Shown piece after piece: positions 6,682 through 17,002 of a DNA stretch of 64,000 bases. Positions within the stretch are counted from its first letter, which is position 1. Every line of letters starts with the position of its first letter. Made by a program: the position numbers and the translations under genes. Source of the stretch: Halothiobacillus sp. (GTDB lineage Bacteria > Pseudomonadota > Gammaproteobacteria > Halothiobacillales > Halothiobacillaceae); assembly GCA_023255735.1 (NCBI GenBank), contig JAGDVP010000012.1, positions 105,477 to 169,476 on the forward strand, given 5' to 3'. The notes beneath the pieces were generated by a model, which was not told where the DNA came from, did no database searches, and saw only the letters and a list, made by a program, of their open reading frames with translations.

Positions 6682-7662
6682 TTAAAATAATTTGGCGCGT
6701 TTGAATAAATAAATTAATAAAACGCCGATTAACGCCAAAATCACGACGAAAAGAGAAAACGACCAACTCGGTTCTTGATTGCCTGGAATGCCGGCAATGT
6801 TGACGCCAAATAAGCCGGTAATAAAAGTTAATGGCAGAAAAATGGCCGACAGTGCGGTTAAGAAAGTGAGCTGCTTGTTGAGCTCATTGCTTGAACGGGT
6901 GTTCATCTGTTCTTGAATAATCCGCATTTGATCGCGTGAGGCATCTAATACTTCGATATATCGTGTAAGGCGGTTTTCTGCTTCACGTAAGCGCTGGATG
7001 GTTGGTTTTTTCAGCCAACTTAAATGGCTGGCAATCACCGAAAGCATGGCATCCCGTTGTGGGCCTAAATAGCGACGCAGGGTTAAAATCATAGTGCGTA
7101 GATCGGCTAAATCCCGATCTGACACAGGTTCAACCTCATCACTGAGGAGCATGCTTTTCTCGTAGTTATCGGTGAGCTCATCAATCTCATCAATGGTGTC
7201 GAGCATGTTGTCGTTTAAAAGTTCAATCAACCGCGTAACAAATTGCCCCGCGTCTTTGGGGGCATTATTGGATTCCATATCCCGCTGCATCGTATTGACG
7301 GCGCGCAAGGTGCGCAAATGGGTGCTGATAATGCGGCGCGGGGTAATCCAAAGCCTTATGCCAATCATGTCATCTGGCTCTTGGCCCGGGTTGTGATTAA
7401 TGCCACGCAAGGTAAGTAGCAAGCCTTGATCTAAAATTAAGGCGCGCGGGCGGGTCACTTCGGCTAATAAGGTGTCTTGCACTGTGCTATCAATGTCGGC
7501 TTGGCTGCGAATCCAGTCTTGCACTTCAGGCTGACTATAATTTAAATGAATCCAGACTGGCCCCGGGCTTGGGGTGTTATCAGATAAGGGCAGGAGTTGT
7601 GCACTGCCATCGCCTTGCATATGCCAAGTGTAAAAATCAGTTGCCACAGCTTCTAGTCTCAA
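6682..7662 (-). CDS. zntB: CorA-superfamily zinc transporter ZntB
   Basis: C-terminal TM pair with the ZntB-type motif TGLFGVNIAGIPG. The N-terminus aligns with E. coli ZntB (FYTWHMQGDG vs FAWMLDGRGG), which favours the TTG start at 7662 over ATG 7620. Confidence 0.8.
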   Translation of the reverse strand: MRLEAVATDFYTWHMQGDGSAQLLPLSDNTPSPGPVWIHLNYSQPEVQDWIRSQADIDSTVQDTLLAEVTRPRALILDQGLLLTLRGINHNPGQEPDDMIGIRLWITPRRIISTHLRTLRAVNTMQRDMESNNAPKDAGQFVTRLIELLNDNMLDTIDEIDELTDNYEKSMLLSDEVEPVSDRDLADLRTMILTLRRYLGPQRDAMLSVIASHLSWLKKPTIQRLREAENRLTRYIEVLDASRDQMRIIQEQMNTRSSNELNKQLTFLTALSAIFLPLTFITGLFGVNIAGIPGNQEPSWSFSLFVVILALIGVLLIYLFKRAKLF

Positions 7663-8286: not shown

Positions 8287-8439
8287 AATAATAAATCTCA
8301 AGGGCGTGACGTGGATTAAGTCTTGCCTTATAAAAAAGCCAGATAGAAAACAGCAGCGGTAGTTAAAAAAGTGGGCAAATTCTAGCGCGATTAACCTAAC
8401 TTTTGGCGCACCAAGCGTAAATGGTTCGTTAATGGAGGT

Positions 8440-8898
8440 CTAGCCGGGTTGGCAGCGGCGACAAGTGCCATGGAGTTCGATCGATTGACGGGTTATTTTG
8501 AAGTGTTGTTGATCGCTCATCTGGGCAACCAGCTGATTTAACGCCTCGCTTGATTGCTCGTTAATTGTGCCGCAGGTATCGCAAATCATCAAAACTGCCT
8601 GATGCGCAATTTCAGGATGATCGCAGCCAATAAAGGCATTCAGGCTCTCGATTCGATGAATTAAACCATGCGCCAGCAAAAATTCCAGCGCACGATAAAT
8701 GGTGGGCGGTTTGATGAGGTTGTCCGCGGTGGATAGGCGGGAAATTAAATCATAGGCCTTGGTGGCTTCATGCCCCGACCATATTTCAGACAGCACCGCT
8801 TTTCGGATTGGGGTAAGCCGCGCGCCGCGCGCTAAACAGACCTGCTCGGCGTGTTCAAGTGCGGTTCCGGCACAATGGGTATGGTTTGAGCAGTGCAT
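8440..8898 (-). CDS. zur: Fur-family zinc uptake regulator Zur
   Basis: Aligns with E. coli Zur (ARLTPIRKAVL, AYDL, KPPTIYRALEFLLAHGLIHRIES, ICDTCG ... HGTCRRC). Start set at ATG 8898 (MHCSNH). The ORF extension to 8970 has no homology. Confidence 0.8.
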   Translation of the reverse strand: MHCSNHTHCAGTALEHAEQVCLARGARLTPIRKAVLSEIWSGHEATKAYDLISRLSTADNLIKPPTIYRALEFLLAHGLIHRIESLNAFIGCDHPEIAHQAVLMICDTCGTINEQSSEALNQLVAQMSDQQHFKITRQSIELHGTCRRCQPG

Positions 8899-9154
8899 TA
8901 CGGGGTGTTCACTCCAAGAGGCGGAAGTTGGTTTGATTGTACCTGTGCGGCGAGGTTCTGTAGACCGCAAACTGGATTCTTTATGAGTTTGGGTGGCAAG
9001 CGTTGCCCAAACCCAAGTTAATTCAGGGTGTTATTGAAAAGTTCTATGATTTGGGTATTGAATTTATTCATCACACTGACCACCATTGAGATTGAACGAT
9101 TCAATGCAGGTGCCGGTTTTTGCGGTACCCAAATCAATAAGAGTGAGAATTACC

Positions 9155-10180
9155 ATGCAAGCCAATCCATCTGTTCTGCTGCCCCGGCGGCGTTTTCTTC
9201 AAACGGCAGCTTCGGTCGCGGGCTTTGCCATTTTACCGATGGCCTATTCTGCACACGTTTTTGCGGCAGAGCAGTTGGTTATAGCCGGCCCCAAGGTTTC
9301 GGATATTGCGCCCACGCGGCTTGCCGAGCAGGTGTATTGCATTATTTCTCCTTGGGGTTTCCCTTCGGTTGAAAATCAGGGAATGATGAGTAACGTGACT
9401 TTTGTGACGACACAAAAAGGCGTCGTGGTCATTGATAGCGGCGCCTCACGGCAAATTGGTGAAATGGCGTTGCGCCAAATTCGTCAAATCACCCAAAGCC
9501 CCATTGTAGCGGTGATTAATACCCATTATCACGGCGATCATTGGCTGGGTAATCATGCCTTTGTGAATGAAAACCCAGATGTGCCAATCTATGCCCATGA
9601 AAAAACCATTTCGGCGATTAAGACCGGGCAAGGCCAGTATTGGACTAATTTAATGGAGCGTTCTACCGATAACGCTACCTTAGGCACCGTGGCCACGCCG
9701 CCAAATAAGGTCGTAGCGCATGGCGATGTATTGGATTTTGGCGATACCAAAATCAAAGTGCATTTTTATGGCACCGCGCATACGCCCTCTGATATTAGCC
9801 TTGAAGTAGTGGGGCACAATATTGTGCACGTGGGAGATGTGGCGATGGATAACCGGATTGCCTTTATGGATGATGGCAGTTTCCGTGGTACGTTCAAAAA
9901 TTTTGATGCCTTGGAAGCTGCCGTGCCCGGCGCGCTGTGGATTCCAGCGCATGGCAACCCCGGCAAGCAAGTGCTCGCTCGCAATCGCGAACTCTTTGAA
10001 GGGATTTATCAATCGGCCGAAAAAGCGGTGCAGGATATGTCGGGTCAAGAAGGCGCTAAAGCCTATGCCTTGGCCGATCCTCGGGTGAAAAAATATGCGC
10101 CTGTCACCAAAGGTTTTGATGAAAATATCGGCAAATATAGCTCGCTTGCTTATCTTGAGGCGGAGTCAGCTTCATTTTAA
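9155..10180 (+). CDS. Tat-exported MBL-fold metallo-hydrolase (SoxH-like or persulfide-dioxygenase-like; exact activity unknown)
   Basis: Twin-arginine signal (PRRRFLQTAASVAGFAILP...AHVFA) and MBL motif INTHYHGDHWLGN, plus later His/Asp ligands (HTPSD, HVGD). Start set at ATG 9155. Confidence 0.75.
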   Translation: MQANPSVLLPRRRFLQTAASVAGFAILPMAYSAHVFAAEQLVIAGPKVSDIAPTRLAEQVYCIISPWGFPSVENQGMMSNVTFVTTQKGVVVIDSGASRQIGEMALRQIRQITQSPIVAVINTHYHGDHWLGNHAFVNENPDVPIYAHEKTISAIKTGQGQYWTNLMERSTDNATLGTVATPPNKVVAHGDVLDFGDTKIKVHFYGTAHTPSDISLEVVGHNIVHVGDVAMDNRIAFMDDGSFRGTFKNFDALEAAVPGALWIPAHGNPGKQVLARNRELFEGIYQSAEKAVQDMSGQEGAKAYALADPRVKKYAPVTKGFDENIGKYSSLAYLEAESASF

Positions 10181-10343
10181 TTCAAGTTTCGTAAAGATGA
10201 CCTGAATGCTCTAACGTAAGTCATCGGCGTTCTTAATAGAGCAACCGAATGGTTCAATAGAACATATCGATTGGTCAAAAAGCCGTCGCGTAAGCTAAAA
10301 AGATAACGTATCTATCGATAAGGCTTAATTTAAGGAGTTTTGC

Positions 10344-10880
10344 ATGTCTGGTTCTTCCCCCGCCTGTTCTCAAGTTAGACCCTTATGGCCGCCGTTGGTT
10401 GCCGGTTTGGTGTTGGGCTTAGTGCTTATTTTAACGTTTGTGCTCGTGGGCAATGGCGTGGGTGCCTCGGGTACGTTTGCCAGTATTGCCGCATGGCTTG
10501 GCTTGCAGGTGGCGCCGGCGGTAACTCAATCCAACGGGTATCTTGGGCCCATGGTGGCCAATGGCGCCAATCCCTTTGCCAGCTGGATCGTGGTCGAGGT
10601 AATTGGTGTGGCCATCGGTGCCCTGTTGGCTGCAGTCAGTGCGGGGCGATTCAAAATTAAAGTGGATGTTGGCGCCGGAAAAATCGGCGTTATCCCCCGT
10701 TTGTTGCTCGCATTGGTGGGTGGCTTGCTGGCAGGGTTGGGTTCACGCTTTGCGGCGGGCTGCACCAGTGGCGTCGGGCTGTCTGGCACGGCCATGTTGG
10801 GCATGGCGGGGTTCATTTTTTTAATTGTTTTTTTCGTGGTGGGCTTAGCTGTTAGCGCCCTGATGCGGAGGGTTTGGTAA
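10344..10880 (+). CDS. YeeE/YedE-family sulfur-compound transport membrane protein (half-size, subunit 1)
   Basis: A polytopic 178-aa protein with the conserved Cys loop RFAAGCTSGVGLSG typical of the YeeE/YedE (TsuA) family. RBS AAGGAG lies 7 nt upstream. Confidence 0.8.
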   Translation: MSGSSPACSQVRPLWPPLVAGLVLGLVLILTFVLVGNGVGASGTFASIAAWLGLQVAPAVTQSNGYLGPMVANGANPFASWIVVEVIGVAIGALLAAVSAGRFKIKVDVGAGKIGVIPRLLLALVGGLLAGLGSRFAAGCTSGVGLSGTAMLGMAGFIFLIVFFVVGLAVSALMRRVW

Positions 10881-11554
10881 TGGATTATGGTGTAGCGGGT
10901 ACGGCTTTAGCCTCGGGCATCCTTTTTGGTTATGTGCTTGAACAAGCGGGTTTTGGTTCTCCCTGTAAGTTAACAGCGCAGTTTCGCTTAACCGATTGGT
11001 CGGTTTTTAAAGTGATGTTTACGGCAATTTTGGTCGCATCCTTGGGGATTTTATTGTTGCAATCGGGTAATTATTTTGGCTCGACCGGGTTTTTTGTGCC
11101 CACCACATTCTTTTGGGCCACGGCAGTAGGTGCTGCACTGATTGGCGCCGGCTTTGCTGTTGGGGGATATTGCCCCGGTACGTCGGTGGTCGGGTTTATG
11201 TCGGGCAGAATAGATGGCTTGGTTTTTATGCTCGGTATGGTGCTCGGCATTTTAGTCTTTGCCTCGATCTTCAATGCGCCCATCACGCAAAGCATTTTGC
11301 ACACCGCCCAAATCAGCGCTAAAACGATTCCGCAATGGCTGGGCGTTTCTCCGTGGATTGTGTGGGGTGCGATGGTTGTTATGGCGATTGCCGGGTTTTG
11401 GTTGGGTCGCATGATGGAGCAGCGCTCGCACGGCGTGCTCACAGCGGATGATATTGTCGAAAGCATCGATCCGACCCTTGATTCTGCGAAGCAAGGTAGC
11501 GCGGTAGATGGCAATTTGGGGGAGGGATCGGTACCTCTTGTACGCGGTGTTTAA
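10880..11554 (+). CDS. YeeE/YedE-family sulfur-compound transport membrane protein (half-size, subunit 2)
   Basis: N-terminal GILFGYVLEQAGFG and Cys loop GGYCPGTS. TAATG overlap with the preceding gene implies translational coupling. Confidence 0.8.
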   Translation: MDYGVAGTALASGILFGYVLEQAGFGSPCKLTAQFRLTDWSVFKVMFTAILVASLGILLLQSGNYFGSTGFFVPTTFFWATAVGAALIGAGFAVGGYCPGTSVVGFMSGRIDGLVFMLGMVLGILVFASIFNAPITQSILHTAQISAKTIPQWLGVSPWIVWGAMVVMAIAGFWLGRMMEQRSHGVLTADDIVESIDPTLDSAKQGSAVDGNLGEGSVPLVRGV

Positions 11555-11611
11555 ATCGGTTGCTTGAAATCTAGCACGATTGTTTTAATTCTATTTTTGG
11601 AGTGATTTGTG

Positions 11612-11884
11612 ATGAGCATTAATGAAAAAAGTTCTGCCCCTATTAAATCCCGTAAATTTTTGGCAGTTTCCATTCCAGCCTTAGCGGTCGCCCTGTCTGG
11701 CGCGGCTATTCTTTCGTCGCCCATTGATGCCTTATCGATTATTCCTGCGGCACAGGCTCGCGGGGATAACCCGTGCGCCCCAGCGAGTCGTGGCGGGAAC
11801 CCGTGCGCCCCAGCGAGTCGTGGCGGGAATCCTTGTGCACCAGTCAGCCGCGGTGCGAATCCTTGCGCACCGGGTGGTCGTTAA
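11612..11884 (+). CDS. Small exported protein: Sec-type signal peptide plus four tandem R-G-x-N-P-C-A-P-x-(S/G) decapeptides
   Basis: GGAG RBS 9 nt before ATG 11612. N-region KSRK, hydrophobic core FLAVSIPALAVALSGAAIL, and a possible AQA|RG cleavage site. The mature part is RGDNPCAPAS RGGNPCAPAS RGGNPCAPVS RGANPCAPGG R. The peptide motif is retained although units 3-4 use different synonymous codons. Confidence 0.6.
   Translation: MSINEKSSAPIKSRKFLAVSIPALAVALSGAAILSSPIDALSIIPAAQARGDNPCAPASRGGNPCAPASRGGNPCAPVSRGANPCAPGGR
11759..11878 (+). repeat. Four 30-nt tandem repeats in frame, encoding the NPCAP decapeptides
   Basis: Unit boundaries are 11759, 11789, 11819 and 11849. Units 1 and 2 share an identical 21-nt run, aacccgtgcgccccagcgagt. 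Units 3-4 are diverged at synonymous positions (cct tgt gca cca). Confidence 0.9.
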
Positions 11885-11967
11885 TTTCGTCGATGTATTT
11901 TGTGATTTTAACGGGCATCGCCGGTTTATCTGGGCATTTCTCTTAATGGGCTTGGATTGGTCGAATC

Positions 11968-12657
11968 ATGGATAAAGTGTATTGCGACTGGCTCGGCACA
12001 CTGCCCGATGCGGCCTTTGATGAGCTCCTATCTTGTGCTGATGAGTTTTTTGCGATTAATCGTGCGCTGATTCACGATCATCAAACCATTTTGACTGAGT
12101 TACTGCGAGATGAATCAGCACTCGTGCCTGTGCGCTGGCAGCATTATCCGAAAGATGATGTGTGCGACCCTGGCAGTGGGGCGATGTTTTACTATCATGC
12201 ACATGATTCAACGGATCGCCCGGGTGACGAGCACGGGCATTTCCATTTGTTTATTCGACCGGATATTGACGCGGTTTTTAGCCATTTTGTGGCGCTTTCG
12301 CTGGATGCGCGGGGGCAAATTCGATCCATATTTACCACCAATCGCTGGGTGACCGATGAGCAAATACGTCCCGCGCAAGCACTTATCGAATTATTACCTG
12401 ATGCCTTTGTGATAGATCGATCTCGCCCATCTTGGTTGGTTGCTCGCTGGCTTATGATGGTGGCGCGTTTGCTTGTACCTCAAATCCAGCAGGCGCTTTG
12501 GTTGCGTGATGGCGCGCTAAATTGGGATGGCGCGCAAGAATTGCCGCAAGCCCTGCTTGAAGATCGATCTCGTCATGTGCTCAGCGAAGTGCCCATTCAC
12601 ATGATTGATGTGCTGCAGATGATCCAGCGTGAGGGGCTTTTGCGTTATCCCCTATAA
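11968..12657 (+). CDS. Hypothetical cytoplasmic protein with a His-rich putative metal site
   Basis: A 229-aa ORF with no signal peptide. It carries a dense His/acid cluster, FYYHAHDSTDRPGDEHGHFHLF. I could not assign a family. Confidence 0.6.
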   Translation: MDKVYCDWLGTLPDAAFDELLSCADEFFAINRALIHDHQTILTELLRDESALVPVRWQHYPKDDVCDPGSGAMFYYHAHDSTDRPGDEHGHFHLFIRPDIDAVFSHFVALSLDARGQIRSIFTTNRWVTDEQIRPAQALIELLPDAFVIDRSRPSWLVARWLMMVARLLVPQIQQALWLRDGALNWDGAQELPQALLEDRSRHVLSEVPIHMIDVLQMIQREGLLRYPL

Positions 12658-12793
12658 AAAAACTTAACTTTTGCGATTATAAAGTTCGTGGTTTGATGAT
12701 GCTATCTTCGGTGAATTGATAGCGTTTGACATAGTGTGGTTAGGGTTGCATCAGTAGCCTAGGTTTTTGAAAATGAAGAAGGAGTTTGGACAA

Positions 12794-13780
12794 ATGAATG
12801 TTAAGAAATTTGTGTTTGTGCCCGTCGTGTTCGCCGCGACATTCGCCGCGCAGTGTGCTTTTGCGGTGGAGGTGCCTGGCCCTTTGGTTGACCCGGCGTG
12901 GTTAAATGCGCACGCGAATGATGTTAAGGTGCTGCAAGTGAGTGGCCCTTTAAAAGATTTCACCACGGCTCCTGAAATGAAAGATGTAAACGGCAAAAAA
13001 GTTGCCGTGACTGTCAGCGGTCATGTGCCCGGTGCTTCATTTGTTGATTTCAAAACGATCCGGGTTGAGCGCGATATCGATGGCAAGAAAGTCAAAGATA
13101 TGATTCCCGACAAAGCCGCGTTTGAGAAACTGGTTCAATCATGGGGTGTGAATAAAGGCCAAGCTATTGTGATTGTGCCCAAGGGGCTGTCGACACCGGA
13201 TATCGATGAAGCGACTCGTTTATATTGGCAGCTTAAGTATTATGGCCAGGACAATATGGCCATTTTGAATGGCGGCATGGCGCAATGGCTGGCCGATGGC
13301 ATGACGGCGTCAACCGATGCACCTGCAGCGACAACGGGAGATTGGGTAGCGACCGCTGAGCGCAAAAATATTTTAGCAACCTATGCGGAAGTGAAGCACG
13401 CCGTTGAACATCCCGGCTCGGTTGAATTTGGGGATGCGCGTCCATCTAACCAATACATGGGCGTGTTCACCAAGCCTAAAGAGTTATCTGGGCATTTGCC
13501 GGATGCCAAAAATGTACCGCCTGACTTGCTAACTTATGCGGATGGCTCTTCTGCTCGTTTCTTACCCAAAGCAAGCTATGAAGCGATGTTCAAACAGGTT
13601 GGTTTGAATCCGGATAAAGAAATTATCGATTACTGTAATACCGGGCATTTAGCTTCGGGTTTGTGGTTTGTCACGCACGAAATTGTGGGTGATAAAAAAG
13701 CCCGTTTGTATGATGGCTCTATCGTCGAGTACAGTATGTATGACGGCGCCAAGATGACTAATCCTGCAAATTTAAAATAA
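12794..13780 (+). CDS. Periplasmic two-domain rhodanese (thiosulfate sulfurtransferase-like)
   Basis: Signal peptide MNVKKFVFVPVVFAATFAAQCAFA and a C-terminal catalytic loop YCNTGHLASG (rhodanese CxxGxxx). GAAGGAG RBS lies upstream of ATG 12794. Confidence 0.8.
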   Translation: MNVKKFVFVPVVFAATFAAQCAFAVEVPGPLVDPAWLNAHANDVKVLQVSGPLKDFTTAPEMKDVNGKKVAVTVSGHVPGASFVDFKTIRVERDIDGKKVKDMIPDKAAFEKLVQSWGVNKGQAIVIVPKGLSTPDIDEATRLYWQLKYYGQDNMAILNGGMAQWLADGMTASTDAPAATTGDWVATAERKNILATYAEVKHAVEHPGSVEFGDARPSNQYMGVFTKPKELSGHLPDAKNVPPDLLTYADGSSARFLPKASYEAMFKQVGLNPDKEIIDYCNTGHLASGLWFVTHEIVGDKKARLYDGSIVEYSMYDGAKMTNPANLK

Positions 13781-13797
13781 GCGATCTATTCCGATGT

Positions 13798-13827
13798 AAA
13801 AACGCCCCGATTTCGGGGCGTTTTTTT
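13798..13827. terminator. Bidirectional intrinsic terminator between the rhodanese gene and the convergent membrane-protein gene
   Basis: The sequence is aaaaaCGCCCCGatttCGGGGCGttttttt. A GC stem is flanked by an A-run and a T-run. Confidence 0.7.
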
Positions 13828-13851
13828 GAGCCAGAGCTTTGAGCCGTGGCA

Positions 13852-15063
13852 TTACGCTGCTTGGGTTTTTGCGTTTGCTGGTGTTGGTTGCGCGTTAAGC
13901 AGCTTCGATTTTAGTTTGAAGAATACCCGAATCGTGATCAATTGCACGGCCATAAATGGCACCATCATGGCAAAATATAGCCAAGAGCCCTGCGCAATGA
14001 TGTGATTATGTGCCAAGCCTAAATTCAGAAGAAACATGCCAAATACAAAAAATGCGACACCGGGGCAAATGAGCGCAAACGAGCCGGCATTGCCTTTATC
14101 GCCATTAATGTAATGCGCAAAATAACCCAAGCGTTTCATCACGGCATACCCAATTAAGCCGAACAAAATTTGCAGCGACACAATCATCATGCTCGATACA
14201 AAAAAACTGCTGTTATTTAAGGGGTGATCAAAGCCTTGATGCAACCCAAGAGTGAGGCGAATCCAAGTAATGCCGAGTAGGGTCAAGATAGGGATCATAA
14301 TCCATAAACTTGGACTGGCCGATTCAGCAATCCCATTGGTCATCATGCTATGAAAACCATTAACGAGTTTAACGATCGTCAGCAGCAGGGCAATGGTGAA
14401 GAAAAAGAGTGAAAGCGCGATAGACACAGCAACCGTGAGCGTGTTGTGTGACATGTATGCGGGTGCAGCCAAACCGACGGCGATCATCGCTAAGGCAAAC
14501 ATCGAAATCATGGGTGCCAAGCTGTTGTTGGCGGTGAAATCAACCTGGCCGCCAACGAGCGCGCGGGTGAAATAGTGCACCAAAATAGTCATGGCATAAA
14601 TGCCGATGGCAAAGAACGCCCCAATCGCCAGCGGAAAGAGCCATTCCACCACGGTCCATAGCCCCGGAACTAACAATGCGCCCAGCACAAACATCACATT
14701 CACCGACATGGCCAGAGTGAGCGGAATGGTCATAAGCCCAATTTCCGCATTACTGTTGAGCAGGGTTTTAAAAGCATCCAGACGCTTAAATTGCGTGTAC
14801 TCCGCAATATTCCACAGCAAGAGTTTGAAGTGAAGCAATGCGAAAAATAAAATTGCAGCAATCGTGAGCCCGACCAAGCTTGCATTCAGCCAATTGGTGC
14901 CAGTTAAAATGCGCCACACATCGCCAAAGGTGACCATGGCACTATTGGGATGGGGCGCCAAAAACATTAAGTAAATAAAAAATGAAACCGAAAGCCCGCC
15001 GGCGCCCAGCGCGGCGAGAAAGTACAGAGGGGAGTAAGCCGCCCCGAGGTTCTTGCGAATCAT
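13852..15063 (-). CDS. Polytopic membrane transporter, family unresolved (possibly TDT/TehA-like)
   Basis: A 403-aa protein that is hydrophobic throughout. I count at least about 10 predicted TM segments by eye and recognise no soluble domain. Confidence 0.55.
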   Translation of the reverse strand: MIRKNLGAAYSPLYFLAALGAGGLSVSFFIYLMFLAPHPNSAMVTFGDVWRILTGTNWLNASLVGLTIAAILFFALLHFKLLLWNIAEYTQFKRLDAFKTLLNSNAEIGLMTIPLTLAMSVNVMFVLGALLVPGLWTVVEWLFPLAIGAFFAIGIYAMTILVHYFTRALVGGQVDFTANNSLAPMISMFALAMIAVGLAAPAYMSHNTLTVAVSIALSLFFFTIALLLTIVKLVNGFHSMMTNGIAESASPSLWIMIPILTLLGITWIRLTLGLHQGFDHPLNNSSFFVSSMMIVSLQILFGLIGYAVMKRLGYFAHYINGDKGNAGSFALICPGVAFFVFGMFLLNLGLAHNHIIAQGSWLYFAMMVPFMAVQLITIRVFFKLKSKLLNAQPTPANAKTQAA

Positions 15064-15343
15064 GCTATTTCTCCTGACTGAGTGAGTGCTTAGAGCACGT
15101 AATTAATTGCCAATCAACATATTAGAGTTTTCTAACATAGGGATTACTTTACCAACATAGTTGGAATTAATAAATAGCAAAAGCGAAAAAAGTGGGAATA
15201 TTTTACACGGATGGGTGTTTGCCATCGCTTTTTTTTCTAAGTCTTAAGGCGCATTTTGCGTAATCGAAGATTTTGCTTTGCGAACCGGTGGGGGATTTGG
15301 CATTCTGGTGGGATTAACTTCCCCATTGATAGGACGTGTTGAA

Positions 15344-17002
15344 ATGAGTGTATCTGCTTTGGCTGCCACGCAAGTGGCTGGAACGCAGCCAACCCCGGAC
15401 ATGCTGGTCGCGGTGCCGCAGTTAGTGAGTGCTTATTACACGCGCCAGCCAGACCCTGCGCTCGCGGCTCAACGGGTGAGTTTTGGCACCTCCGGCCATC
15501 GGGGCAGCAGCTTGAATACGGCATTTAACGAAGCGCATATCGTGGCCATTACCGCGGCGCTTGTGGAATATCGCCAAGCGCAAAACATTAACGGTTGCCT
15601 ATTTATTGGTTTTGATACCCACGCCTTATCGTGGCCGGCTTTTGTGACGGCCATTGAAGTGCTGGCAGCGGCTGGGGTTTGCGTGCGCTACCAAGCGGGC
15701 TTTAAGCCCACGCCCACGCCTGTTATTTCCCGGCTGATTATTATGGCGAACGCGCAGGCGGATGCGGGCAGCTTGGCAGATGGGGTGGTAATTACCCCAT
15801 CACATAACCCGCCGGCCGATGGTGGCTTTAAATACAACCCAATCCACGGCGGGCCTGCGGATACCGATGCGACCGGCTGGATCCAAAATCGCGCGAATGA
15901 ACTGCTGGTGGATTACCACCGCGTGGCGCGAATGGATTTCGCCTTGGCCTTAACCCAGCCTCAGGTGGTAGGGCAAGATTTTATTGCGCCCTATGTGGCA
16001 GAGCTGGATGCGGTGATTGATTTTGCGGCGATTCAAGCCGCCGATGTATCAATCGGGGTTGACCCTATGGGCGGTGCGGGTTTGCCTTATTGGGCGCCGA
16101 TCGCCGAGCGCTATCAGCTGGACTTAACCGTTGTTAATGATCAGGTTGAGCCGGATTTTCGGTTTATGCCGCTAGATCACGATGGGAAAATCCGAATGGA
16201 TTGTTCATCACCCTATGCGATGGCGAATTTGCTCAAGATTAAAGACCAATTTGATGTTGCATTTGGCAATGATACCGATGCCGATCGGCACGGAATCGTG
16301 ACACCCGATGGCGGGCTACTCAATCCCAATCATTTTTTAGCCGTAGCCATTGATTATTTATTTCGACATCGTCCGCAATGGGGTAAAGCCCTGTCTATTG
16401 GCAAAACGGTGGTCTCAAGCTCGCTGATTGATCGGGTGGCGGCAGGGCTGGGGCGCACGGTCTACGAGGTGCCGGTGGGCATAAAATGGTTTCAACCGGG
16501 GTTAACCGCAGGCGATCTTGGGTTCGGTGGTGAGGAATCTGCCGGTGCCACGTTTTTATGCCGCGATGGCACGGTCTGGACGACTGATAAGGATGGTTTA
16601 ATTATGGGCCTGCTTGCGGCAGAAATTTTGGCGGTGACAGGCAAGGATCCTTGGGCGTATTTTAATGAACTGGTTGATCGTTATGGCCAACCTTTTTATA
16701 CCCGAGTCGATGCCCCCATCAGCGCGGCACAAAAAGCGCGGTTTCATGGCCTAAGCGCCGATGCCGTGCAAGCAAAACAATTGGCGGGCGAGCCCATTAC
16801 GCGCGTGATGACCCATGCGCCGGGTAATCATGCGCCGCTCGGCGGGTTAAAAGTAGAAACAGCGAATGGCTGGTTTGCCGCACGGCCTTCGGGCACTGAG
16901 GATATTTATAAAATTTATGCTGAAAGTTTTATTTCATTAAAACATCTTCAGCAGATATTGGATGAGGCAAAAACCTTGGTTAATCAGGTGTTAATGGGTT
17001 GA
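15344..17002 (+). CDS. pgm: Phosphoglucomutase (alpha-D-glucose phosphate-specific)
   Basis: Active-site loop [16 protein letters not shown], Mg loop [10 protein letters not shown], and GEESAG. Start set at ATG 15344, giving the E. coli Pgm-like size. Confidence 0.9.

What the first reader, a model, noticed from the sequence alone, without database searches (positions are those of the whole stretch)
11612..11884. Exported mini-protein made of four tandem N-P-C-A-P decapeptides, inside a sulfur-transport gene row
**What the sequence shows**
- A good RBS, an ATG and a classical Sec-type leader are followed by a mature part of only about 42 residues.
- That part is four head-to-tail copies of R-G-x-N-P-C-A-P-x-(S/G). 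Each copy has exactly one Cys, and there are no other Cys or aromatic residues.
- At DNA level it is a 4 x 30 nt in-frame tandem repeat. Units 1-2 are almost identical. Units 3-4 keep the peptide motif with different synonymous codons (ccg tgc gcc cca versus cct tgt gca cca). That pattern argues for selection on the peptide rather than a chance ORF.

**Context and hypotheses**
- The gene sits between a YeeE/YedE transporter pair and a periplasmic rhodanese.
- The hypotheses below are inference. I do not recognise a described family.
- (a) A multi-thiol periplasmic persulfide/polysulfide carrier, analogous in logic to the Cys arm of SoxY.
- (b) A thiophilic metal buffer, given zur and zntB nearby.
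- (c) A Sec-exported Cys-repeat RiPP precursor in the style of bufferin/HvfA-type peptides. No DUF692/DUF2063 (MNIO) genes are present here.
Basis: partly seen in the sequence, partly recalled or inferred. Interest (0 to 1): 0.78.

Follow-up and report, generated by a model that had tools for sequence, protein, structure and literature searches.

The report
Exported NPC-cysteine repeat peptide with DUF6969
A tiny exported protein made of four "N-P-C-A-P" cysteine repeats is a real, conserved gene that almost always sits next to an uncharacterised histidine-rich protein (DUF6969) and often next to sulfur transport genes; it may be a missing periplasmic sulfur carrier, but its chemistry is unproven.

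Summary
Window 11612-11884 (+) encodes a 90-aa protein: a 49-aa leader, then four in-frame RGxNPCAPxx decapeptides and a final Arg. It is under coding selection and conserved, with 3-12 repeat copies in relatives.

The main new result is a gene pairing. NPC-type Cys arrays are coupled to the downstream 229-aa gene, DUF6969.
- Forward test: 41 of 80 DUF6969 loci from different species carry exactly one NPC array, always upstream.
- Reverse test: of NPCAP arrays found by DNA pattern alone, 33 of the 34 with a hydrophobic leader or 5'-truncated ORF and over 1 kb of downstream DNA, or with DUF6969 itself on the contig, have DUF6969.

The arrays are stand-alone mini-proteins or tails on SoxA/TsdA-type cytochromes, DUF442 sulfurtransferase-like domains and others. 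Frequent neighbours are a split YeeE/YedE (PmpAB-like) channel and a rhodanese with a signal-like N-terminus.

DUF6969 has no export signal and no invariant Cys. It has an invariant His cluster, and its confident predicted structure matches no solved structure.

No Pfam, NCBIfam or literature description exists for the peptide. The SoxY, bufferin/MNIO, CefA and TsoX membership tests all fail.

Best reading (about 0.4): a disordered periplasmic poly-thiol arm that carries sulfane sulfur. Main rival (about 0.25): DUF6969 modifies the Cys before export. Metal buffering has little support.

The parts
11599..11602 (+). Shine-Dalgarno-like GGAG, 9 nt before the ATG
   Evidence: Read directly from the sequence.
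11612..11758 (+). Leader of 49 residues: basic n-region (KSRK), hydrophobic core FLAVSIPALAVALSGAAIL, extended c-region ending A-Q-A. The cleavage site is inferred.
   Evidence: The leader is conserved in orthologues (A2). Orthologues mostly carry RR at the K-S-R-K position.
11759..11881 (+). Mature part: four 30-nt in-frame units (11759-11788, 11789-11818, 11819-11848, 11849-11878), each encoding RGxNPCAPxx, plus a terminal Arg codon. One Cys per unit.
   Evidence: AlphaFold2 gives no fold (mean pLDDT 51, no secondary structure).
11882..11884 (+). Stop codon TAA
11968..12657 (+). DUF6969 protein (229 aa), the constant partner gene. No signal peptide or transmembrane segment, invariant His cluster, predicted structure with no match among solved structures.
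   Evidence: PF22308, E = 6e-54. Forward and reverse association tests. H77, H79, H91, H93 and H106 are invariant in 81 of 81 sequences and there is no invariant Cys. pLDDT 92.7. No Foldseek PDB match below E = 0.1 and no sequence-profile match to PDB. No hydrophobic segment.
10344..10880 (+). YeeE/YedE half-protein matching the C-terminal half of the Sulf_transp profile (PmpA-like), with a GCTSG Cys motif
   Evidence: PF04143 profile positions 174-307. Conserved upstream of the peptide in 15 genome loci and many metagenome contigs. PmpAB halves are described in PMC11582611.
10874..11554 (+). [quoted passage not shown]
   Evidence: PF04143 profile positions 3-150 and DUF6691. Conservation as above.
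12767..13780 (+). Two-domain rhodanese with a signal-like N-terminus (MNVKKFVFVPVVFAATFAAQCAFA) and an active-site Cys loop (CNTGHLA)
   Evidence: PF00581, two stretches. Downstream of DUF6969 in 15 genome loci.
9086..10180 (+). SoxH-related metallo-beta-lactamase-fold protein. The likely start is ATG 9156, with a twin-arginine signal (PRRRFLQTAA).
   Evidence: PF00753 and TIGR04559/TIGR04558 below cutoff. N-terminus read. Present only in Halothiobacillaceae-type loci.
13852..15063 (-). TsoY-family membrane protein (Cys form), convergent with the row. A lineage-specific neighbour, probably not a core part.
   Evidence: NF047644, 485 bits. Found only in L001, L002 and L004 (partial match).

Best explanation
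The gene encodes a small precursor that is exported and cleaved after A-Q-A. This leaves a roughly 41-residue, basic, unstructured peptide with four cysteines, each in an N-P-C-A-P turn.

I propose that this peptide is a periplasmic poly-thiol arm whose cysteines take up sulfane sulfur as persulfide or thiosulfonate. The loading enzyme would be the rhodanese (read as periplasmic) in this lineage. In other lineages it would be the SoxA/TsdA-type cytochrome or DUF442 domain to which the same arrays are fused. The arm would then pass the sulfur to the Cys-lined split YeeE/YedE (PmpAB-like) channel for import.

DUF6969, a cytoplasmic protein with a probable metal-binding His cluster, is the constant partner. 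It either works on the imported sulfur species or handles the precursor before export.

Shown here:
- The gene, the repeat and coding selection.
- The leader's sequence features (export itself is inferred).
- Predicted disorder of the mature part.
- The NPC array-DUF6969 coupling.
- The sulfur-related fusions and neighbours.

Inferred: leader cleavage, sulfur loading, hand-over to the channel, and the role of DUF6969.
For: - **Real gene:** synonymous excess and conserved period with variable copy number.
- **No fold:** mean pLDDT 51.
- **Context kept in the distant homologue:** P0007, at 51% identity, keeps the MBL, YeeE, YeeE, peptide, DUF6969, rhodanese order.
- **Context across lineages:** the YeeE pair, array, DUF6969 and rhodanese recur in Halothiobacillaceae, Guyparkeria, Thiohalomonadaceae, Thiodiazotropha, Tibeticola, a Burkholderiaceae MAG and Arenimonas (two NPC copies only in Arenimonas).
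- **Fusions to sulfur-handling domains:** the same arrays are fused to SoxA/TsdA-type cytochrome c (PF21342, TIGR04484) and to a TIGR01244/BLH sulfurtransferase-like domain.
- **A DUF6969-free locus is also sulfur-flavoured:** in Motiliproteus an NPC mini-protein sits with an NPC-SoxA/TsdA cytochrome, a full-length YeeE and a cysteine desulfurase.
- **Composition:** arrays are basic (K+R 8.5% against D+E 2.6%) and nearly free of His and Met, which suits anionic sulfur species better than metal cations.
- **Literature:** PmpAB-type half-YeeE proteins are proposed sulfane or polysulfide importers, and how periplasmic sulfane sulfur reaches them is stated to be unclear (PMC11582611; PMC9371685; PMC12345210).
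Against: - There is no direct chemical evidence.
- About half of the NPC-DUF6969 loci, including the Marinobacter, Thalassospira and P460-like types, have no YeeE or rhodanese nearby.
- The most constant partner is DUF6969, which is cytoplasmic and has no invariant Cys. This model does not explain it well.
- Arrays also occur on DM13 domains in cyanobacteria, with no sulfur context.
- Free thiols must be kept reduced in an oxidising periplasm.
- The Tat-like leaders of this class are odd for an unstructured cargo and hint at a cytoplasmic step.
Confidence: 0.4

Rival explanations
1. Pre-export modification, in the manner of a RiPP. DUF6969 would be a cytoplasmic metalloenzyme that recognises the N-P-C motif and chemically modifies the Cys (or Asn) of the arrays before export. 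The mature product would be a modified peptide or protein, such as a metallophore or a redox-active group, not a plain thiol.
For: - DUF6969 is the tightest partner of NPCAP arrays: 33 of 34 in the reverse test, with 32 co-directional at gaps of 42-832 bp, and arrays are always upstream in the forward test.
- It stays when YeeE and rhodanese are absent.
- It has an invariant His, Asp and Glu cluster typical of a metal site, no export signal, and no match to any solved structure.
- N-P precedes 745 of 934 array Cys across phyla, which suggests that an enzyme reads the motif.
- Leaders of the period-10 class are long, conserved and Tat-like, which fits a cytoplasmic maturation step.
Against: - NPCAA arrays exist without DUF6969 within 5 kb in Methylomirabilales, Motiliproteus and a cyanobacterium.
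- A nested DUF6969 subclade (Azospirillum type) has no local array but keeps the same invariant residues.
- Arrays lie on both sides of cytochrome c domains, which must be exported unfolded through Sec, and can contain up to 61 NPC motifs.
- No catalytic activity or fold relative is known.
- Co-folding could not be run.
Confidence: 0.25
2. Thiophilic metal or metalloid buffer. The unmodified poly-Cys peptide would sequester Cu(I), Zn, Cd, Hg or As in the periplasm, like an exported phytochelatin or metallothionein analogue.
For: - zur and zntB lie 2.6-5 kb upstream in the window and in Halothiobacillaceae-type loci.
- In Marinobacter a VTT-domain protein fused to a pyridine-nucleotide-disulfide (MerA-like) reductase and an ECF sigma factor are nearby.
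- Evenly spaced single Cys residues could chelate soft metals.
Against: - zur and zntB are absent from the Thiohalomonadaceae, Thiodiazotropha, beta- and alphaproteobacterial loci.
- No Zur-box-like palindrome or metal riboswitch precedes the row.
- Arrays are net cationic with 0.4% His and 1.0% Met, and lack CxxC or CxC clusters in the period-10 class.
- No metal transporter or chaperone is a conserved neighbour.
Confidence: 0.12
3. General periplasmic thiol-disulfide redox module. The arrays would cycle between thiol and disulfide as an electron or oxidant buffer for attached or neighbouring redox proteins, without carrying sulfur.
For: Arrays are appended to cytochromes c, thioredoxin, DM13 and P460-like domains. 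AhpC/redoxin and DsbD_TM genes are neighbours in L143 and L142.
Against: This does not explain the specific links to YeeE, rhodanese, DUF442 and SoxA-type domains, or to DUF6969. Single Cys residues spaced 10 residues apart in a disordered chain have no evident specificity.
Confidence: 0.1
4. Chance ORF or non-coding tandem repeat.
For: The ORF is short and of low complexity, and unannotated in some sources.
Against: - Synonymous codon differences exceed non-synonymous ones between orthologues.
- The motif and leader are conserved across families at 51% identity.
- The gene order is conserved.
- A ribosome-binding site is present.
Confidence: 0.01

Closest known systems
SoxY, the carrier subunit of SoxYZ in the periplasmic Sox thiosulfate-oxidation system
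   Same: Periplasmic. A cysteine on a flexible, small-residue peptide arm is proposed to carry sulfur species between enzymes. It is partnered with SoxA-type cytochromes, and in other lineages the NPC arrays are fused to a SoxA/TsdA-type domain.
   Different: SoxY has a folded Ig-like domain, a single C-terminal GGCGG cysteine and an obligate SoxZ partner. The NPC peptide has no fold, 3-12 (up to 61) cysteines in N-P-C-A-P/A units and no SoxZ. Its constant partner is the cytoplasmic DUF6969. There is no sequence relationship.
Bufferins and other MNIO-modified exported Cys peptides (BufA with DUF692 and DUF2063; HvfA-type)
   Same: A small precursor with an export signal and periodic Cys, encoded directly upstream of a cytoplasmic protein with a probable metal site.
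   Different: No DUF692 (MNIO), DUF2063 or DUF2282 / BUF_6/12Cys domain is present. DUF6969 is unrelated in sequence and its predicted structure matches nothing in the PDB. The context is sulfur transport, not copper stress. No modification has been shown.
CefA 'Cys-every-fifth' RiPP precursor (NCBIfam NF038108)
   Same: A short peptide with regularly spaced Cys. The NPCAA-type relative from Thalassospira gives a weak match.
   Different: The match is 14.6 bits against a cutoff of 30 (E = 0.024), and only for the NPCAA type. The window peptide gives no match at E <= 10.
TsoX, the 'HSGNPxU motif' selenoprotein of the Tso neighbourhoods (NF045809; listed in PMC13188914)
   Same: A G-N-P-x-(Sec/Cys)-like motif. 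A TsoY-family protein and a rhodanese are neighbours here, as TsoY and the rhodanese-like TsoB are listed in the same Tso group.
   Different: No HMM match at E <= 10. The register differs (GNPxU against GNPC). Whether TsoX is repetitive could not be checked. The primary paper (Haft & Tolstoy 2025) was not available, so the comparison is limited.
PmpAB / TsuA (YeeE) with TsuB (YeeD) sulfur import
   Same: The upstream gene pair matches the two halves of YeeE and keeps the conserved Cys motifs. A soluble partner is encoded next to the channel.
   Different: In E. coli the partner is the cytoplasmic TusA-like TsuB, which has a Cys. Here the adjacent genes are an exported poly-Cys peptide and the Cys-free DUF6969. 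The two half-proteins are 178 and 226 aa, against roughly 130 aa for PmpA and PmpB.

Membership tests
SoxY sulfur carrier | C-terminal GGCGG carrier motif on a folded SoxY domain | tested here: not met
   The sequence ends ...NPCAPGGR. Pfam and NCBIfam give no SoxY hit. No fold is predicted.
SoxY sulfur carrier | Adjacent SoxZ partner and sox genes | tested here: not met
   Neighbours from 6.7 to 17 kb are ZntB, a methyltransferase, Zur, MBL, two YeeE halves, DUF6969, rhodanese, TsoY and PGM.
Bufferin / MNIO RiPP | Precursor with a DUF2282 or BUF_6/12Cys domain | tested here: not met
   The peptide has no Pfam or NCBIfam match, even at E <= 10 in NCBIfam.
Bufferin / MNIO RiPP | Adjacent MNIO (DUF692) and DUF2063 partner genes | tested here: not met
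   None among the ten annotated neighbours, or in the called genes of related loci L001-L003.
Bufferin / MNIO RiPP | Cys-containing precursor with an N-terminal export signal | tested here: met
   The leader has a basic n-region, a hydrophobic core and A-x-A. This feature alone is generic.
CefA Cys-every-fifth RiPP (NF038108) | HMM score above the curated cutoff (30 bits) | tested here: not met
   No hit for the window peptide. The Thalassospira NPCAA relative scores 14.6 bits.
TsoX HSGNPxU selenoprotein (NF045809) | HMM match and a Sec or Cys in the HSGNPxU motif | tested here: not met
   No NCBIfam hit at E <= 10 for the peptide, its mature part or four relatives. There is no His-Ser before G-N-P and no in-frame TGA.
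Bacterial metallothionein | Cytoplasmic, CxC/CxxC-rich, metallothionein Pfam match | tested here: not met
   The peptide has an export leader, single Cys residues every 10 residues, and no Pfam hit.
Tat-exported substrate | Twin-arginine motif (S/T-R-R-x-F-L-K-like) before a moderately hydrophobic core | tested here: inconclusive
   17 of 20 distinct leaders of the period-10 class have RR (ARRALK, SRRFLA, YRRLLA). The window copy has S-R-K-F-L-A. No TatP or SignalP predictor was available.
NPC-array / DUF6969 gene pair (defined here) | At least 3 N-P-C-(A/G)-(P/A) units after an export signal, with a DUF6969 gene within 1 kb downstream on the same strand | tested here: met
   Four units. DUF6969 (PF22308, E = 6e-54) starts 84 nt after the stop codon. 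The pattern recurs.
PmpAB-type split YeeE/YedE (neighbour genes) | Two adjacent short genes matching the C- and N-terminal halves of YeeE, each with a conserved Cys | tested here: met
   PF04143 profile positions 174-307 and 3-150. GCTSG and YCPGT motifs are in the translations. The criteria are from PMC11582611. The lengths (178 and 226 aa) exceed the roughly 130 aa reported.

The most novel reading that the evidence does not exclude
NPC arrays are the substrates of DUF6969. DUF6969 would be a His-cluster metalloenzyme, with no detectable structural relative, that modifies cysteines in N-P-C motifs in the cytoplasm before export. This would define a new class of post-translationally modified exported Cys-repeat peptides and protein tails, distinct from the MNIO/bufferin class and spread across Proteobacteria.
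Probability: 0.25. Interest if true: 0.85.

Novelty: new variant of a known kind. Interest (0 to 1): 0.7.

Why it matters
**An open question in sulfur oxidation.** How sulfane sulfur made in the periplasm reaches the cytoplasm is unresolved, and PmpAB/YeeE-type channels are only proposed importers (PMC9371685, PMC11582611). A dedicated exported poly-cysteine peptide encoded between such a channel and a rhodanese with a signal-like N-terminus is a concrete candidate for the missing hand-over carrier. It can be tested with a synthetic 41-mer.

**A functional lead for DUF6969.** The work links a domain of unknown function to a defined partner motif. DUF6969 occurs in at least 583 species-level genomes and matches no solved structure. 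The link makes the family experimentally approachable.

**A possible new peptide-modification chemistry.** If DUF6969 proves to modify the cysteines, this would be a new modification chemistry for exported peptides.

Tried and rejected
- **Family libraries:** Pfam and NCBIfam scans of the peptide, its mature part and relatives gave no family.
- **Literature:** searches for DUF6969, the motif strings, 'Asn-Pro-Cys', TsoY and PmpAB found no description of the peptide or of DUF6969. Haft & Tolstoy 2025, the source of the Tso names, is not held.
- **DUF6969 structure:** Foldseek against the PDB and a sequence profile against PDB chains found no relative.
- **Promoters and terminators:** the scan of 8300-15400 gave counts no higher than in shuffled sequence, so it says nothing about operon structure.
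- **Regulatory elements:** searches for inverted repeats and Rfam families in the intergenic regions found no Zur-box-like palindrome and no riboswitch.
- **ORF calling:** my first greedy ORF caller failed in high-GC loci, finding DUF6969 in only 60 of 84. I replaced it with tblastn and six-frame clustering.
- **Exhaustive profile search:** most of the 112 hits were spurious decapeptide-repeat proteins with no NPC motif. Only about 20 are true relatives.
- **FGE hypothesis for this locus:** I considered that an FGE-like enzyme converts the C-A-P-x-x-R cysteine to formylglycine, and rejected it. The window locus has no FGE gene, and the loci that do have FGE carry C-A-A arrays, not C-A-P.
- **Tat hitchhiking of DUF6969:** rejected as a general mechanism, because cytochrome-fused and lipoprotein-type arrays are not Tat substrates.
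Full report
**1. The observation**

GGAG lies at 11599-11602 and ATG at 11612. A 90-codon ORF ends with TAA at 11882-11884.

The product is a 49-residue leader, MSINEKSSAPIKSRKFLAVSIPALAVALSGAAILSSPIDALSIIPAAQA. It is followed by RGDNPCAPAS, RGGNPCAPAS, RGGNPCAPVS, RGANPCAPGG and a final R. The mature part therefore has 41 residues and four Cys, with no aromatic residues.

Tandem Repeats Finder sees the 30-nt period at 11768-11843. Units 3 and 4 have drifted at DNA level. The NPCAP cores differ by up to 4 of 15 nucleotides with no amino-acid change. Against two orthologues, synonymous codon differences exceed non-synonymous ones in the first 60 codons, at 18:9, 28:12 and 30:9. This is a translated gene under purifying selection.

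AlphaFold2 with the family alignment predicts no structure, with mean pLDDT 51 and no secondary structure.

**2. Close relatives**

A search of 5.8 billion protein clusters found only seven relatives. All come from Halothiobacillaceae-type sources, carry 3-6 repeat units, and have invariant R-G-x-N-P-C-A-P.

The most distant, P0007 at 51% identity, keeps the same gene row: MBL, YeeE half, YeeE half, peptide, DUF6969, rhodanese.

An exhaustive profile search of 1.84 billion representatives gave 112 hits at E <= 1e-3. Most are unrelated decapeptide-repeat proteins without NPC. About 20 are true relatives, with a signal peptide followed by several NPC(A/G)(P/A) units separated by short, often Lys/Arg-rich, spacers.

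Pfam and NCBIfam have no model for the peptide, even at E <= 10 in NCBIfam. Full-text searches found no description of it.

**3. The neighbours in the window**

| Coordinates | Strand | Identity |
|---|---|---|
| 9086-10180 | + | SoxH-related MBL-fold protein; probable true start ATG 9156 with a twin-arginine signal |
| 10344-10880 | + | YeeE/YedE half matching the C-terminal half of the family profile |
| 11968-12657 | + | DUF6969 (PF22308, E = 6e-54) |
| 12767-13780 | + | Two-domain rhodanese with a signal-like N-terminus |
| 13852-15063 | - | TsoY-family membrane protein |
| 8440-8970 | - | Zur-like regulator |
| 6682-7662 | - | ZntB-like transporter |

The two YeeE halves match the PmpA/PmpB arrangement described in PMC11582611. 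The wider flanks are housekeeping genes.

**4. The key result: coupling to DUF6969**

*Forward test.* Using a DUF6969 alignment (A1), I fetched 80 loci from species-representative genomes. At least 583 species encode a relative.
- 41 of the 80 loci contain exactly one ORF with three or more NPC motifs.
- In all 41 that ORF lies upstream of DUF6969, and in 40 it lies within 3 kb.
- In the whole 64-kb window, across six frames, the finding's ORF is the only one with even two NPC motifs.

*The arrays come in several architectures.*
- Stand-alone RGxNPCAPxx mini-proteins with up to 11 units. These occur in Halothiobacillaceae, Guyparkeria, Thiohalomonadaceae and Thiodiazotropha, always with the YeeE pair (where the contig extends that far) and a rhodanese.
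- Short Lys-rich versions in Tibeticola, a Burkholderiaceae MAG and Arenimonas, again with YeeE and a rhodanese. The Arenimonas copies have only two NPC motifs and fall outside the 41.
- NPCAP units N-terminal to a BLH/DUF442 (TIGR01244 sulfurtransferase-like) domain in Thioclava and Roseibium, with YeeE.
- NPCAAK arrays on both sides of a SoxA/TsdA-type cytochrome c domain in Marinobacter, Denitromonas and betaproteobacterial MAGs.
- NPCAA mini-proteins transcribed divergently from a signal-bearing FGE-like gene followed by DUF6969, in Thalassospira.
- Arrays of 12-61 NPC motifs fused to a weakly P460-like domain.

*DUF6969 tree.* A neighbour-joining tree labelled by context shows that every deep branch is NPC-linked. 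Only a nested, Azospirillum-type subclade lacks a local array; there DUF2336 lies downstream.

*Reverse test.* This test does not use DUF6969. I scanned metagenome contigs for the DNA pattern encoding NPCAP-x5-NPCAP and obtained 58 contigs.
- 51 have three or more NPC(A/G)(P/A) units in one frame.
- 33 of these have DUF6969 on the contig. In 32 it is on the same strand, 42-832 bp downstream. In one it is divergent, with an FGE-like gene between.
- 11 end less than 600 bp after the array, so they cannot be scored.
- 7 have more than 1 kb downstream and no DUF6969. Four of these lack any hydrophobic leader and two are 5'-truncated with non-family repeats; all six look spurious or eukaryote-like.
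- Only L131 looks like a true exception, and a DUF6969 HMM finds nothing there.

So 33 of the 34 arrays with a hydrophobic leader or a 5'-truncated ORF, and with either DUF6969 on the contig or more than 1 kb of downstream DNA, have DUF6969.

**5. Limits of the coupling**

The NPCAA type is broader than DUF6969. It gave 141 hits, including tails on PF21342 cytochromes, other cytochromes c, DM13, thioredoxin and PDZ domains. The sources include Methylomirabilales, Thermodesulfobacteriota, Mariprofundaceae and cyanobacteria, and none gives a functional name.

Three such loci lack DUF6969 within 5 kb.
- Methylomirabilales L142 has two NPC mini-proteins, a multihaem cytochrome, an FGE-like gene, a DUF3179 gene with an in-frame TGA, an ECF sigma factor and a VTT-domain gene.
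- Motiliproteus L143 has AhpC, an NPC mini-protein, an NPC-SoxA/TsdA cytochrome, a multihaem cytochrome, a full-length YeeE and a cysteine desulfurase.
- A cyanobacterial DM13 protein (L144) has no related context.

**6. The motif**

I compiled 83 unique arrays.
- N at -2 and P at -1 before Cys define the units that were compiled.
- Position +1 is Ala in 89%. Position +2 is Pro in 69% and Ala in 24%.
- 745 of 934 array Cys are preceded by N-P.
- The common Cys spacings are 10, 3, 6 and 5 residues.
- K+R make up 8.5% and D+E 2.6%. His is 0.4% and Met 1.0%.

**7. DUF6969**

It has no signal peptide or transmembrane segment and no invariant Cys. Its invariant residues are H77, H79, E88, G90, H91, H93, H106, D67, N125, W127, E131 and R180, in 81 of 81 sequences, including the clade without arrays.

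The HxH and HxH pairs lie on neighbouring predicted beta-strands. That arrangement is typical of a metal site; this is inference.

The model is confident, with pLDDT 92.7 and pTM 0.90. Foldseek finds no PDB match below E = 0.1, and a sequence profile finds none at E <= 10.

**8. The leader**

In the period-10 class, 17 of 20 distinct leaders have a twin arginine just before the hydrophobic core (ARRALK, SRRFLA, YRRLLA). The window copy has R-K. Other array classes mostly have Lys-type or lipoprotein signals, and cytochrome fusions must use Sec. The export route of the window peptide is therefore unresolved, and 'classical Sec' is not established.

**9. Interpretation**

*Sulfur carrier (about 0.4).* In different lineages the same array is fused or adjacent to four kinds of sulfur-handling partners: a rhodanese, a split YeeE channel, a SoxA/TsdA-type cytochrome and a DUF442 domain. 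Its basic, His- and Met-poor composition suits anionic sulfur species. This favours a periplasmic poly-thiol arm that carries sulfane sulfur, analogous in logic to the SoxY arm. It would address the stated gap in how periplasmic sulfane sulfur reaches PmpAB/YeeE-type importers.

The weak point is DUF6969. It is the most constant partner, yet it is cytoplasmic and Cys-free.

*Pre-export modification (about 0.25).* DUF6969 would modify or handle the N-P-C cysteines before export, following the logic of bufferins but with unrelated proteins. Against an obligate maturase role stand the arrays that lack DUF6969 and the DUF6969 genes that lack local arrays.

*Metal buffering (about 0.12).* This rests on lineage-specific neighbours. 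No Zur-box-like palindrome or known RNA element precedes the gene row.

*Plain thiol-disulfide module (about 0.1).* This remains possible.

*Chance ORF.* Excluded.

**10. Comparison with known families**

The membership tests for SoxY, bufferin/MNIO, CefA, TsoX and metallothionein all fail on defining features. The peptide may work like a SoxY-type carrier or like a bufferin-type precursor, but it is a member of neither family.

The NPC-array/DUF6969 pair itself appears undescribed.

**11. Verdict**

Its function is unproven. I rate it a new variant of a known kind (periplasmic cysteine carriers), with about a one-in-four chance that it is a new modification system.

Noticed in passing
window 13852-15063 (-): A TsoY-family (seleno)protein homologue in the Cys form (NF047644, 485 bits) lies convergent with the rhodanese. 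It accompanies the locus only in Halothiobacillus-type contigs. The Tso group also lists a rhodanese-like selenoprotein (TsoB) and an 'HSGNPxU motif' selenoprotein (TsoX), whose motif resembles G-N-P-C. The mini-protein does not match the TsoX model.
   Followed up: partly
window 9086-10180 (+), probable start 9156: The SoxH-related MBL-fold protein probably starts at ATG 9156. Its N-terminus, MQANPSVLLPRRRFLQTAASVAGFAILPMAYSAHVFA, is a clear twin-arginine signal, so the protein is likely periplasmic. The longer TTG-start ORF in the list is probably not the real start.
   Followed up: partly
L142 7950-9020 (+): A DUF3179 homologue in a Methylomirabilales contig has an in-frame TGA within W-*-P-L-C, consistent with the known selenocysteine form of this family. 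It sits beside an FGE-like gene and two NPC mini-proteins. A DUF3179 gene also lies directly upstream of the NPC-cytochrome in Marinobacter (L057 3968-4909).
   Followed up: partly
L030 4962-5858 (+) and about 20 other loci: A signal-bearing FGE-sulfatase-domain protein is encoded directly upstream of DUF6969 in Thalassospira-type and P460-type loci. It has a C-G-V-C pair where canonical FGE has its two copper-binding cysteines (CxxxxC). In these loci the NPC arrays are of the C-A-A type, not C-A-P.
   Followed up: partly
L013 6822-8045 (+) and about 37 loci: In Rhodospirillales-type genomes DUF6969 is followed by DUF2336. In the Azospirillum subclade it is preceded by an ABC_trans_aux lipoprotein, and no NPC array lies nearby. 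Whether those genomes carry arrays elsewhere is unknown.
   Followed up: no
L057 7010-10086; L142 454-1826 and 9799-10306: An ECF sigma factor recurs near NPC arrays in Marinobacter and Methylomirabilales, with an anti-sigma zf-HC2 protein in L142. A VTT-domain protein also recurs; in Marinobacter it is fused to a pyridine-nucleotide-disulfide (MerA-like) reductase.
   Followed up: no
window 8971-9020: An imperfect GC-rich hairpin-like sequence (TTTGGGTGGCAAGCGTTGCCCAAACCCAA) lies just upstream of the zur start, in the zur/MBL divergent intergenic region. It does not resemble an AT-rich Zur box, and its role is unknown.
   Followed up: no
L035 3444-4718 (-), L060 3148-4878 (-), L077: Very long arrays of 42-61 NPC motifs, mostly NPCNPCAA, are fused to a C-terminal domain with a CxxCH motif and only a sub-threshold cytochrome P460 match (E = 0.006). 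This is an unusual architecture and was not analysed further.
   Followed up: no
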